DNA of 64,000 nt from the human T2T-CHM13v2.0 reference genome, Homo sapiens, in assembly GCF_009914755.1 (NCBI RefSeq), contig NC_060943.1; one strand, written 5' to 3'. This document shows positions 42,280 to 46,654 of this stretch, piece by piece (the stretch's first letter is position 1; the number at the start of each line of letters is the position of its first letter). The translations under genes and the position numbers were made by a program. Under the pieces are notes generated by a model that saw only the letters and a program-made list of their open reading frames with translations, was not told where the DNA came from and made no database searches.

Positions 42280-42869
42280 TCACTGGGTTAGTGGATACCT
42301 GAAAGCCCTAACTTCATCATTTTGGAATCTATCCATGCAATAAAGTTACACTTGTACCCCATAAACGTATACAAATAAAAAATAATCGTCTGGGCATGAT
42401 GACTTACCGCTGTAATCCCAGCACTTTGGGAGGCTGAGGCGGGATTACAGGTGTGAGCCACCATGCCCGGCCTATACTTTCTATCTTAATAACTACAAAA
42501 ATAATAACTTGCTGGATGGGTCCCTGTGCCCACCCCGTCCTGTCCTAAGTGAGGAGGATGGGAAGAAAGCCATCGTCCTGTCCTGGTGCGGCTCTCAAAC
42601 AGCTGGAAATGCTGGCTGCACAGGAAACTCTAAGGATCGGCAGCTCTAGCGCATGCTACCCTTGGCAGCTGTGTGGTCTGTGGATAGAGAAGGACCAACC
42701 TGTGGTTAGTGGAGGAAGAGGAGGAATATTGCTTTGATAAGCACATCCTCAGAGTTATAACAGAGGAGACAATAGTTATAAAATAAGAATGATATTTACG
42801 AAAAATAATAAGACTATTAACAAGAAACAGCAACAAATCTTGAAAACAAAATGTAACAACAAAACATAA

Positions 42870-44593: not shown

Positions 44594-44919
44594 TCAGCTG
44601 GTCCAACCCATCATTCCCTGGGCAGCTGTGGGATCTATGGCTAGAGAAGAACAGAGCTGAGCTTAGAGGGGAAGGAAGAGGAGGAAGATTGTTTTCTCCC
44701 GGCATCCAAACACAGCTTTTCAACCAGGGGGAGCACCACCCTCACTTCCCATCGCCCCATCCAGGGATATTTGAAAGGTATGAGAGTAGTGGCTTTTTTG
44801 TTGTTGTTGTTTCACAATAATTAGGTCTCCAACAGGTGTTCAATGGGAAAGGAAGTATTAGCAATGTCGAGTTACGTGTTCCTATAATGGACAAGACAGT
44901 CTCACATGGTGAAGGACTA

Positions 44920-45390: not shown

Positions 45391-45728
45391 AGAAGGTGGA
45401 TCTTAAACAGAAAGGTCCATAAGCTAGATTGAGATAACCATTGTCACAATGAGTGAAATTTCTTCCTCGGCACACAATTAATTACTTAGTTAGTAGGAAA
45501 GTTCCCAGAAGGTGGATCTTAAACAGAAAAGTCCATTAGCTACATTGTGATAATCATGTCACAATTAGTGAAATTTCTTCTTTGGTACACAATTAATTAT
45601 TTAGTAGGGAGGTTCCCAGAAGGTGGATCTTAAACAGAAAGGTTCGTTAGCTACATTGTGATACTCATGTCACAATCAGTGAAATTTCTTCCTTGGTACA
45701 CAATAAATTACTTAGTAGGAGGGTTCCC
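45391..45728. repeat. Tandem repeat, 3 copies of ~111-116 bp, embedded in an old L1M 3' fragment
   Basis: Units start AGAAGGTGGATCTTAAACAGAAA at 45391, 45507 and 45618 and each ends GTTCCC. Confidence 0.9.
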
Positions 45729-45915
45729 CACCCGTAGGCTTATGGGGGTATAATTGATAAATCAAAATGGAATATATCAAAACATCACGTTGTACACAAA
45801 TATAACTCCATTTTTATTTGTCGATTAGATCTCAATAAATCTGGAGCAGAAGAGAATTCCATATCTCTACAGCAGCCCATGAAAGAGAGAGGGGATCCGT
45901 GTTTTAACTTGGATC

Positions 45916-46522
45916 TGTTACTGGAAAGGGGTCCCAGTCCAGACCCCAAGAGAGGGTTCTCGGATCTCACACAAGTAAGAACTCAGGGTGAGTACACAGA
46001 GTAAAGTGAAGGCAAGTTTATTAAGAAAGTCAAGGAATATGGCTGCTCCATAGGCAGAGCAGTCCAGAGGGCTGTCAGTCGGCTATTTTTGTGGTTATTT
46101 CTTGATCGTATGCTAAACAAGGGGTGGACTGTTCATGAGTTTTCCAGGAAAGGGGAGGGGATTTCCCTGGAACTGAGAGTCCCTCCCTCGTTTAGCTTCT
46201 GGAAGTTGCCATGGCATCTGTAAGCTGTCTTGGTGGCGGTGGGAGTGTCTTTTAGCATGCAAATGCATTATAATTAGCAAATAATGTGCAGTGAGGACGA
46301 CCAGAAGTCACTTTTGTTGCCATCTTGGATTTGGCAGGTTTTGGCTGGCTTCTTTGTTGCATCTTTGTGTCTTTGGGTCTTTGTGACCTGTATGTTGTGA
46401 CCTGTCTCATCCTGTGACTTAGAAAGCCTCAACCCCCTGGGAATGCAGTCCAGCAGGTTGCAGCCTCAGTTTACCCAGCCCCGGTTCAAGATGGAGTCAC
46501 TCTGGTTTGAAGGCCTCTGATT
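45916..46522 (-). mobile_element. MER41 (MER41B-like) ERV1 solo LTR overlapping the TARM1 C-terminus and 3'UTR
   Basis: Minus strand begins TCAGAGGCCTTCAAACCAGAGTGACTCCATCTTGAACCGGGGCTGGGTAAA and ends GGACCCCTTTCCAGTAACA, matching recalled MER41 termini; retains the GAS-bearing segment. Confidence 0.85.
46017..46022 (-). terminator. TARM1: LTR-derived AATAAA, candidate TARM1 polyA signal
   Basis: tttatt on + strand within the MER41 LTR, ~475 nt after the TARM1 stop. Confidence 0.55.
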
Positions 46523-46654
46523 CACCTGGAGACACATTCCGGCTGTACCAGGCCTCCACCAGGAAAGCTCCCATGATAACCACAATTACGGCAGCCAGAC
46601 CCAGTCGTACGAAGTTACCCAGGGAGTAGTTGCTCGATGTGGTACCTGGGGGAA
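46497..46654 (-). CDS. TARM1: TARM1 exon 5 CDS: stalk, TM with Arg (GNFVRLGLAAVIVVIMGAFLVEAW), short tail, TGA
   Basis: ctttcag|TTCCCCCA; ORF 46497..46679; N-x-x-R-L-G motif typical of FcRgamma-associating LRC receptors. Confidence 0.96.

What the first reader, a model, noticed from the sequence alone, without database searches (positions are those of the whole stretch)
45916..46526. TARM1 cytoplasmic tail end, stop codon and 3'UTR are exapted from a MER41 LTR sitting on a possible ancestral splice donor
Seen: the TARM1 CDS ends CCA G|GT GAA TCA GAG GCC TTC AAA CCA GAG TGA CTCCATCTTG. From TCAGAGG onward this matches the recalled 5' end of MER41 (TGTCAGAGGCGTTTGAACCAGAGCGACTCCATCTTG), so S-E-A-F-K-P-E-stop and the AATAAA at 46017 are LTR-derived. 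Just before the LTR is CAG|GTGAAT, a donor-like site in phase 1, the same phase as the VSTM1 TM-exon donor. Inference: a primate LTR insertion at about +4/+5 of the donor converted an internal TM exon into a terminal exon, rewriting the tail and supplying the polyA site.
Basis: partly seen in the sequence, partly recalled or inferred. Interest (0 to 1): 0.75.

Follow-up and report, generated by a model that had tools for sequence, protein, structure and literature searches.

The report
Retroviral LTR ends the TARM1 gene
A solo retroviral LTR of the MER41 type, roughly 50 million years old, sits in the last coding exon of the immune-receptor gene TARM1 and now supplies its final seven codons, its stop codon and its 3' untranslated region; this is a known kind of event, here with an unusually readable history.

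Summary
Window 46520-45916 (minus strand, sense to TARM1) is a 605-base solo LTR. It has thousands of genomic relatives, and they show TG...CA ends and 4-base target duplications. It aligns full-length (76%) with the BANCR promoter LTR, which print names MER41B. Copy divergence gives 45-74 My. The LTR-coded tail appears in three catarrhine protein clusters and in no strepsirrhine model.

The last seven TARM1 codons (SEAFKPE), the TGA and the whole annotated 3'UTR are LTR sequence. The family's own AATAAA (46022-46017) is the only poly(A) hexamer found between the stop and the LTR's end.

The splice-donor part is half right. The ancestral gene did have a downstream exon: a fossil of it (R|SHSCPG) lies at 44634-44616. 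But its acceptor needs a phase-2 donor, and orthologues carry 11 residues after EAW. So the LTR most likely landed inside the exon's last codons and cut the exon body off from its donor.

It is a new member of a known kind (LTR-supplied gene ends). No primate genomic DNA or RNA reads were available, so the junction model is inference.

The parts
46521..46654 (-). Host-derived part of the last TARM1 coding exon (stalk end, NxxR transmembrane segment, start of the tail up to ...SPGE)
   Evidence: RefSeq exon 46389-46654, CDS from 46654. Translation. tblastn of lemur, sifaka and manatee TARM1 models aligns to 46661-46509.
45916..46520 (-). Solo LTR, MER41 family (MER41B-like), sense to TARM1. Its 5' end lacks the family's usual first two bases.
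   Evidence: Searches give the ends from 29 copies. 23 of 30 copies start with TG, where the window has AA. Full-length alignment to the BANCR promoter LTR (query 3-607 of 607, 76.0%, E 3.6e-128), which print names MER41B. Neither flank is ERV-internal: the 5' side is the TARM1 exon, and the 3' side is unique apart from a roughly 85-base dispersed fragment.
46497..46520 (-). LTR-coded end of the TARM1 CDS: seven codons (SEAFKPE) plus the TGA stop
   Evidence: In the stop's column the 30 copies carry CAA 11, CGA 7, TGA 7, other 5. In the same frame most copies read on to ...LHLE*.
46389..46496 (-). Annotated TARM1 3'UTR, wholly inside the LTR
   Evidence: All four RefSeq TARM1 transcripts end at 46389. 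None of 12 poly(A) hexamer variants lies in the 35 bases before 46389.
46142..46172 (-). Two GAS-like (STAT-type) sites about 21 bases apart, centre to centre. The second is a perfect TTCNNNGAA; the first has one base too many.
   Evidence: 25 of 30 copies have at least one such site in the aligned stretch, and 13 of 30 have at least two. A 21-bp tandem is printed for the MER41B consensus (Schmid & Bucher 2010, section read).
46017..46022 (-). The LTR's own AATAAA, followed by GT-rich sequence. It is the likely real poly(A) signal of TARM1.
   Evidence: It is the only hit for 12 hexamer variants between the stop and the LTR's end. The same hexamer is in the same column in 20 of 30 copies. The BANCR RefSeq 5' end maps 16 bases upstream of it, at window 46038.
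46520..46528 (-). Here it is read as coding sequence (P-G-E), not as the old donor.
   Evidence: Beaver and lemur models have SPGE.. and SPSE.. at this place.
45912..45915 (-). GATC directly 3' of the LTR: the proposed surviving copy of the 4-base target duplication
   Evidence: The family makes 4-base duplications: 16 of 30 copies match 4 of 4, and 6 of 30 match 3 of 4. The nominal window flanks GGTG/GATC match only 2 of 4. The upstream copy is inferred, not seen.
45903..45911 (-). Proposed stranded end of the old exon plus its donor: CAA|GTTAAA, phase 2
   Evidence: In the frame set by the target copy the flank reads S-K-L-K, against G-S-R of orthologues. The old exon would be 139 bases, entering in phase 1 and leaving in phase 2 (hand count).
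44616..44636 (-). Fossil of the ancestral terminal mini-exon: polypyrimidine tract, ..ccatag acceptor (AG at 44636-44635), then A TCC CAC AGC TGC CCA GGG = (R)SHSCPG. There is no stop where orthologues stop.
   Evidence: It is the best hit in all six frames of the whole window for a score table built from 8 orthologue tails: score 196, against 200 shuffles with mean 133.0, sd 12.3, max 181. Sequence. Read one base over, the same stretch gives PTAAQ, as in the horse tail. It is unique in the genome by DNA search.
42656..42679 (-). Second, diverged copy of the mini-exon: (R)PHSCQG followed by a stop
   Evidence: Second-best hit of the same scan, score 169, which is within the range of the shuffles. 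The surrounding 179 bases are 72.6% identical to copy 1 (44695-44517 against 42735-42562, E 5e-23). Sequence.

Best explanation
A MER41-type gammaretrovirus-like element integrated, in sense orientation, into the transmembrane/tail exon of TARM1 in an early simian ancestor. It later collapsed to a solo LTR, or only the LTR remains.

The insertion point lay inside the exon's last codons. The exon's final seven bases (the 4-base target copy GATC plus CAA) and its phase-2 donor were pushed about 0.6 kb downstream, to the far side of the LTR. Transcripts that leave the exon body now run straight into the LTR. They meet a stop after a few LTR codons and can be cleaved at the LTR's own AATAAA. The old donor and the old terminal mini-exon, 1.3 kb further on, fell out of use and decayed.

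In the human/chimp lineage the 5' junction is four bases shorter than a primary junction would be: two of the target copy and the LTR's first two. This sets the present frame, SEAFKPE-stop. The TGA itself is a minority state of the family, one CpG transition away from CGA.

Shown: the LTR, its family, age range, orientation and ends; that the coding end, the stop and the annotated 3'UTR are LTR sequence; that orthologues differ; and that the fossil exon exists.

Inferred: the exact insertion point, the four-base loss, and use of the LTR's poly(A) site.
For: LTR identity and ends:
- 19 of 29 copies start to align at 46520, and 23 of 29 end within 2 bases of 45916.
- 23 of 30 copies start with TG. 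4-base target duplications are perfect in 16 of 30.

Name:
- Full-length 76.0% match to the LTR at the BANCR 5' end, printed as MER41B (PMC5134097).
- Tandem GAS-like sites about 21 bp apart, as printed for MER41B.
- 3736 first-look candidates, against about 4110 solitary MER41 LTRs in print.

Age:
- K2P distance to 30 copies has mean 0.221, or 0.200 with CpG masked. That gives 45-50 My at 2.2e-9 per site per year and 67-74 My at 1.5e-9 (the rates are recalled).
- Print gives 45-60 My and entry in a simian ancestor.
- SEAFKPE occurs only in the hominid, gibbon and macaque clusters: 3 of the 71 models with a TM tail.

Insertion inside the exon:
- Orthologues have 11 residues after EAW before the stop or junction. 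The human host sequence read across GATC into the 3' flank also gives 11 (..SPG-G/E-S-K).
- The exon would be 139 bases and would leave in phase 2. That matches the fossil acceptor, which needs one base to follow two.
- The gibbon and macaque models each carry exactly one extra residue at the junction (Leu and Ser) and no other indel against human. Both are flagged LOW QUALITY.

Fossil exon.

Poly(A).
Against: - No non-human genomic DNA could be read. The upstream target copy and the four-base loss are deduced from two LOW QUALITY protein models plus the human 3' flank.
- At the nominal ends the window's flanks match only 2 of 4.
- The proposed old donor is weak today: CAA|GTTAAA matches the recalled MAG|GTRAGT at 5 of 9 positions.
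- 38 of 71 orthologue models end at the junction, and only 11 run on into the mini-exon-like tail (at least 12 counting P0081, which the regex missed). So 'internal exon' may overstate the ancestral use.
- RefSeq ends all four transcripts at 46389, about 370 bases before the AATAAA.
- The subfamily call rests on one print-named copy and a motif, not on Dfam or Repbase models.
- The chr19 masked-repeat table does not list the stretch.
Confidence: 0.7

Rival explanations
1. CAG|GTGAAT (46526|46525) is the ancestral donor of an internal TM exon, and the LTR entered the intron at +4/+5 and disabled it.
For: - The site matches the recalled donor consensus at 8 of 9 positions and lies directly against the LTR.
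- Phase 1 is the usual phase of Ig-superfamily exons and of the VSTM1 TM-exon donor.
- A downstream exon did exist.
Against: - It leaves only 7 whole residues after EAW, where orthologues have 11.
- Phase 1 would read the fossil mini-exon in the wrong frame for 8 of the 11 orthologue tails classed as running into it. Those 8 read SHS../PHS..; the three Equus models read the other frame after what looks like a one-base shift.
- SPGE at this place is matched by beaver SPGE.. and lemur SPSE.. as coding sequence.
- The flanks GGTG/GATC match only 2 of 4.
Confidence: 0.15
2. There was no conversion. The TM exon was already the usual terminal exon, because read-through of the donor gives a stop at once, and the mini-exon served only a minor isoform. 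The LTR merely replaced the last three codons, the stop and the 3'UTR.
For: - 38 of the 71 orthologue models with a TM tail end at or before the junction (..GSR*..GST*), across carnivores, lemurs, bats and ungulates. Only 11 run into the mini-exon-like tail.
Against: - The mini-exon tail is kept across Afrotheria, bats, lemurs, rodents and horses. Its fossil is still the best hit in the window, which argues for long-term use.
- Gene models are predictions, and many short ones may be truncated.
Confidence: 0.35
3. The mRNA really ends at 46389, as RefSeq has it, and the LTR's AATAAA is not used by TARM1.
For: All four RefSeq transcripts, including the curated NM records, end at 46389.
Against: - None of 12 poly(A) hexamer variants lies in the 35 bases before 46389.
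- The next bases are A-rich, as at internally primed cDNA ends (an inference).
- The only hexamer found inside the LTR after the stop is the family's own AATAAA, which has GT-rich sequence after it.
Confidence: 0.25
4. The LTR belongs to a MER41-like but separately named family or subfamily (MER41A, C, D, E or G, or a relative such as ERV-Saru), not MER41B.
For: - Only one print-named comparator was used, and no Dfam model was available.
- MER41E is also printed with a 21-bp tandem.
- Identity to the BANCR LTR (76.0%) is no higher than to the other copies.
Against: - The match to the MER41B-named LTR is full-length.
- The GAS stretch that MER41A is printed to lack is present.
- The AIM2 element, now called ERV-Saru in print, matches at only 60.7% over 234 bases.
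- MER41B covers about eight times more genome than MER41E in print.
Confidence: 0.15

Closest known systems
HHLA2 and HHLA3 (HERV-H LTR supplies the main poly(A) signal; Mager et al. 1999) and HERV-K-T47D-related LTRs that polyadenylate cellular transcripts (Baust et al. 2000). Both were seen only as entries in a reference list (PMC11853044); their content is recalled.
   Same: A sense-oriented LTR at the 3' end of a host gene ends its transcripts with the LTR's own signal.
   Different: Here the LTR also supplies seven codons and the stop. It cut an exon off from its donor, and the abandoned exon can still be found. Use of the poly(A) signal is not shown here.
BANCR (5' LTR named MER41B is its promoter; three of four exons come from a partial MER41 provirus). 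Babaian & Mager 2016, PMC5134097, passages and table rows seen.
   Same: The same LTR family, full-length and 76.0% identical. The LTR sequence is built into a host transcript.
   Different: In BANCR the LTR starts a non-coding RNA. In TARM1 it ends a protein-coding one.
MER41B interferon-inducible enhancers (Chuong et al. 2016, not held, known through reviews; Schmid & Bucher 2010, section read).
   Same: The family and the tandem GAS-like sites about 21 bp apart.
   Different: No binding or enhancer data were seen for this copy. One of its two sites has an extra base. The best-known example, at AIM2, is now assigned to ERV-Saru (PMC11905727) and is only 60.7% similar over 234 bases.

Membership tests
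Retroviral solo LTR (class I / ERV1 type) | Dispersed copies of one length with shared, sharp ends | tested here: met
   40 of 40 scored places match, out of 3736 first-look candidates. The copies are 604-631 bases long. 19 of 29 start to align at 46520, and 23 of 29 end within 2 bases of 45916.
Retroviral solo LTR (class I / ERV1 type) | TG...CA termini | tested here: inconclusive
   Family: 23 of 30 copies start with TG, and most end ..AACA. Window copy: it ends in CA (45917-45916) but has AA where TG should be. This is read as a small loss at the junction.
Retroviral solo LTR (class I / ERV1 type) | 4-base target-site duplication | tested here: inconclusive
   Family: 16 of 30 copies match 4 of 4 and 6 of 30 match 3 of 4. 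Window copy: the nominal flanks match 2 of 4. A perfect GATC pair is only inferred.
Retroviral solo LTR (class I / ERV1 type) | Own poly(A) signal near the 3' end, on the strand that also holds the transcription start | tested here: met
   AATAAA at 46022-46017, in the same column in 20 of 30 copies. The BANCR 5' end maps to 46038 on the same strand.
Retroviral solo LTR (class I / ERV1 type) | No internal proviral sequence alongside (solo state) | tested here: met
   The 5' flank is the TARM1 exon. The 3' flank, 653 bases, is unique apart from a roughly 85-base dispersed fragment.
MER41 (MER41B) | Full-length similarity to a copy that print names MER41B | tested here: met
   BANCR promoter LTR: query 3-607 of 607, 76.0%, E 3.6e-128. 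The name comes from PMC5134097.
MER41 (MER41B) | Two GAS sites in tandem, 21 bp apart (printed for the MER41B consensus; MER41A is printed to lack the stretch) | tested here: met
   Sites at 46172-46163 and 46150-46142, about 21.5 bases centre to centre. The first site has one base too many. Print.
MER41 (MER41B) | Best match to the Dfam/Repbase MER41B model rather than to A, C, D, E or G | not testable with these tools
   No repeat library was on hand.
MER41 (MER41B) | Simian-restricted, about 45-60 My old | tested here: met
   K2P dating gives 45-74 My depending on the rate. The LTR-coded tail is in 3 catarrhine clusters only. Lemur, sifaka, mouse-lemur and galago models have other tails. 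New World monkey models lack the exon, so they say nothing.
LTR-supplied gene end (HHLA2/HHLA3-like) | Host transcript and CDS end inside a sense-oriented LTR | tested here: met
   The CDS end 46497 and the transcript end 46389 both lie inside 45916-46520.
LTR-supplied gene end (HHLA2/HHLA3-like) | Cleavage and polyadenylation directed by the LTR's own signal | not testable with these tools
   No reads were available. The RefSeq end at 46389 has no hexamer before it.

The most novel reading that the evidence does not exclude
The TARM1 tail was rewritten twice in primates.

First, the MER41 LTR cut the exon off from its donor in an early simian. Then a four-base loss at the junction in the ape lineage leading to human and chimpanzee moved the reading frame within the LTR. 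On this reading SEAFKPE is a young, hominid-only peptide, and gibbons and Old World monkeys read a different LTR frame. Their RefSeq models, flagged LOW QUALITY, would hide this.

In addition, the LTR would place a tandem STAT-type site inside the 3' end of a myeloid activating-receptor gene, next to VSTM1. That could tie the locus to interferon-gamma.
Probability: 0.4. Interest if true: 0.5.

Novelty: new member of a known kind. Interest (0 to 1): 0.4.

Why it matters
It is a clean, datable example of a retroviral LTR remodelling the 3' end of an immune-receptor gene. The new coding end, the stop and probably the poly(A) site come from the LTR, while the abandoned donor and terminal exon are still legible nearby.

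It bears on three practical points:
- How TARM1 3' ends are annotated. The RefSeq 3'UTR may be about 390 bases too short.
- How primate TARM1 models flagged LOW QUALITY should be read.
- Human-mouse comparisons of the receptor's tail.

The tail is short and print reports no signalling motif in it, so a large functional effect is not expected.

Tried and rejected
Naming through AIM2. I fetched 75 kb around AIM2 because reviews call its upstream element MER41B. A standard blastn found nothing. A relaxed search found 60.7% over 234 bases around a tandem GAS site. Frith 2025 (passages) reassigns that element to ERV-Saru, so I dropped it as a comparator and used BANCR instead.

Masked-repeat table. 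It does not list the LTR, but it also misses most of another copy, so I rejected it as evidence.

A second TM-exon fossil that could serve as an uninserted paralogue. tblastn of 8 orthologue models against the window found only the one TM exon (rows for 3 of the 8 were printed).

More simian tails. A protein search limited to the last 56 residues of the chimpanzee model returned 8 proteins from 9 candidates, with 2 more left out as unnamed. Only the same three clusters carry SEAFKPE. The New World monkey models (P0012, P0013, P0017) stop before the TM exon.

Print.
- TARM1 + MER41: 0 papers.
- TARM1 + LTR as whole words: 4 papers, 3 listed, on HIV TAR mutants and a civet genome.
- One search was badly framed (any 2 of 5 terms) and gave nothing useful.
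- Radjabova 2015 and Chuong 2016 are not held.
- Supplements are closed. Genome-wide tables of TE-derived exons or poly(A) sites, and Frith's supplementary figures, may well list this locus or settle the subfamily.

Early junction ideas that I dropped. Another was a GAAT target copy. Both needed more ad hoc changes than the GATC model.
Full report
**1. The observation**

On the minus strand the window reads ...TCT CCA GGT GAA TCA GAG GCC TTC AAA CCA GAG TGA CTCCATCTTG. The annotated TARM1 CDS ends with that TGA (46499-46497). All four RefSeq transcripts share the last exon 46389-46654. The joined annotated CDS gives 271 residues ending WYSRNVSPGESEAFKPE. AATAAA lies at 46022-46017. The site CAG|GTGAAT (46528-46520) is phase 1 in the annotated frame, and the VSTM1 TM-exon donor is phase 1 too.

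**2. It is an LTR**

A search of the whole reference genome with 45916-46526 gave 3736 first-look candidates. Forty were scored and all forty matched: the window itself and 39 others at 75-79% identity. Twenty-nine were saved with flanks.

- Ends: homology starts exactly at 46520 in 19 of the 29 saved copies. It ends exactly at 45916 in 14 and within two bases of it in 23. Three copies seem to extend 28-32 bases into the TARM1 exon. In L009 this is a chance 12-base likeness, since its own target duplication sits at the usual place. L019 and L024 are X/Y duplicates of each other.
- Termini: across 30 copies (the 29 plus the BANCR LTR), 23 begin with TG and most end in ..AACA.
- Target duplications: the four bases on either side are identical in 16 copies and match 3 of 4 in 6 more.
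- Orientation: the strand is the one that carries the family's AATAAA (20 of 30 copies in the same column) and the BANCR transcription start. The LTR is therefore sense to TARM1.
- Solo state: the 5' flank is the TARM1 exon. The 3' flank is unique apart from a roughly 85-base dispersed fragment.

The chr19 masked-repeat table does not list this stretch. It also misses most of another copy, so I give it no weight.

**3. Family**

No repeat library was available, so I named the element from print.

- Babaian & Mager 2016 (PMC5134097, passages and table rows) list the BANCR promoter as a 629-base MER41B LTR. They give about 4110 solitary MER41 LTRs.
- The LTR at the BANCR 5' end in this assembly aligns with the window LTR over positions 3-607 of 607, at 76.0% and E 3.6e-128. 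That is the same range as the best genomic copies.
- The window copy has two GAS-like sites about 21 bases apart (46172-46163 and 46150-46142). Schmid & Bucher 2010 (section 8 read) print such a tandem for the MER41B consensus. A review (PMC9963469, passages) says MER41A lacks that stretch.
- The AIM2 element, often called MER41B, matched only weakly: 60.7% over 234 bases. Frith 2025 (PMC11905727, passages) reassigns it to ERV-Saru, which explains the weak match.

I therefore call the element MER41, most likely MER41B. The subfamily is not proven.

**4. Age**

The Kimura distance from the window copy to 30 copies averages 0.221 (range 0.196-0.242), or 0.200 with CpG sites masked. Among the other copies it is 0.197 over 435 pairs, including two near-identical duplicate pairs. 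Half the distance divided by a recalled neutral rate gives 45-50 My at 2.2e-9 per site per year and 67-74 My at 1.5e-9. The copies were the best-scoring ones, so the distance is if anything low.

Print gives 45-60 My and entry in a common ancestor of simians.

The phyletic pattern agrees. Of 118 TARM1-like models, 71 have a TM-exon tail. Only the hominid, gibbon and macaque clusters end in SEAFKPE. Lemur, sifaka, mouse-lemur and galago models do not. New World monkey models lack the exon and are uninformative.

**5. What the LTR supplies**

Codons S-E-A-F-K-P-E and the TGA are LTR bases 46520-46497. The annotated 3'UTR (46496-46389) is LTR too.

In the same frame most copies read on to ..LHLE-stop. 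In the column of the TARM1 stop the 30 copies have CAA 11, CGA 7, TGA 7 and other 5. The stop is therefore a minority state, one CpG transition from CGA.

Between the stop and the LTR's end, the only hit among 12 poly(A) hexamer variants is the family's AATAAA, with GT-rich sequence after it. None precedes the RefSeq end at 46389. I infer that the real 3' end lies shortly after 46017 and that the RefSeq end is incomplete. This is not shown.

**6. The ancestral 3' end**

Non-simian tails fall into the following classes:

| Class | Models (of 71 with a TM tail) |
|---|---|
| End at or before a common point, 11 residues after EAW (..SPRGSR, ..SPRGST) | 38 |
| Run on from that point into a short conserved tail (manatee RSHSFPGKQ, lemur RSHSCGGER, sifaka RPHSCGGKR, beaver RPHSAPGEW, bat, elephant, tenrec, horse) | 11 (12 with P0081, which the regex missed) |
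| Other tails | 19 |
| LTR tail (SEAFKPE) | 3 |

This pattern is what a donor gives when its read-through meets a stop at once (an inference).

A score table built from eight of the run-on tails, slid over all six frames of the 64-kb window, has its best hit on the TARM1 strand at 44636-44616. That is 1.3 kb past the LTR, and it reads R-SHSCPG. It scores 196, against a mean of 133.0, sd 12.3 and maximum 181 in 200 shuffles. A polypyrimidine tract and ..ccatag precede it. Read one base over, the same stretch gives PTAAQ, the start of the horse tail. It has lost the stop that orthologues have.

A second, diverged copy (R-PHSCQG-stop) lies at 42679-42656, within 179 bases that are 72.6% identical to the first.

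**7. Where the old donor was**

The fossil acceptor leaves one base to complete a codon, so the donor was phase 2.

The 3' flank of the LTR begins GATC CAA GTTAAA. Suppose GATC is the surviving copy of the 4-base target duplication. Then the host sequence read across the insertion gives ..S-P-G-(G/E)-S-K, followed by GT. That is eleven residues after EAW, an exon of 139 bases leaving in phase 2, and a match to the orthologue pattern x-(G/E/D)-(S/P)-R.

The gibbon and macaque models, both flagged LOW QUALITY, differ from human by exactly one extra residue at this junction (Leu and Ser) and by no other indel. Both readings can be had from one junction that is four bases longer than the human one, read with one base skipped. 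That is how I recall NCBI's pipeline treats a frameshift.

I conclude, as inference, that the LTR entered the exon seven bases before its end. I also infer that the human/chimp junction later lost four bases.

The upstream target copy is not visible in human. No primate DNA could be read.

**8. Comparison and verdict**

LTRs that end host transcripts are known: HHLA2 and HHLA3, and HERV-K-T47D LTRs. I saw these references only as list entries. MER41 LTRs inside host transcripts are known too (BANCR).

I found nothing in print on TARM1 and this LTR. TARM1 + MER41 gave 0 papers. TARM1 + LTR gave 4 papers, of which 3 were listed and were irrelevant. Supplements and two key papers could not be read.

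This is a new member of a known kind. It is of moderate interest because the abandoned donor and exon are still readable, and because the primate gene models and the RefSeq 3' end may need correction. The tail itself is short, and print reports no signalling motif in it.

Noticed in passing
window 45391-45728: A tandem repeat with period 111, 3.0 copies and 88% matches lies in the stretch between the LTR and the fossil exon. Its origin is unknown.
   Followed up: no
window 45771-45858 (minus strand): A fragment of about 85 bases matches many dispersed places at 75-86%. It looks like a piece of an L1 3' region; that label is recalled and not tested. It has its own AATAAA at 45818-45813.
   Followed up: partly
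window 42562-42735: A second, diverged copy of the mini-exon region, 72.6% identical over 179 bases, still has a stop after ..PHSCQG. It may be a remnant of a lost TARM1-like paralogue. Lemurs have both TARM1 and TARM1-like models on one contig.
   Followed up: partly
window 46142-46172: Tandem GAS-like sites lie inside the TARM1 3' end. The second is a perfect TTCNNNGAA and the first has one extra base. No binding data were available.
   Followed up: partly
window 46389: The 3' end shared by all RefSeq TARM1 transcripts has no poly(A) hexamer in the 35 bases before it, and A-rich sequence follows it. It is possibly an incomplete cDNA end.
   Followed up: partly
L033:1336-1564 (chr1, upstream part of the AIM2 gene span): The AIM2-associated LTR with a tandem GAS site is only 60.7% like the window LTR over 234 bases. 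This agrees with its reassignment to ERV-Saru in print.
   Followed up: yes
L019/L024 and L017/L029: Two pairs of LTR copies are nearly identical (K2P 0.011 and 0.028), and each pair shares its flanks. One pair is X/Y and the other chr1/Y. They are duplicated segments, not separate insertions.
   Followed up: no
proteins P0012, P0013, P0017 (Aotus, Saimiri): New World monkey TARM1 models stop at or before the end of the second Ig exon and have no TM exon. The cause could be gene decay, a gap or a truncated model; I cannot tell which.
   Followed up: no
proteins P0022, P0023, P0025 (Equus) against window 44618-44632: The horse-family tail ..SRPTAAQRNESLIELTAC reads the mini-exon one base out of register with the other orthologues. 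This implies a one-base shift in that lineage.
   Followed up: partly
chr19 masked-repeat table: The table lists nothing at the window LTR and only 168 bases of the LTR copy L021. The masking is not a repeat-family annotation and under-reports old LTRs.
   Followed up: yes
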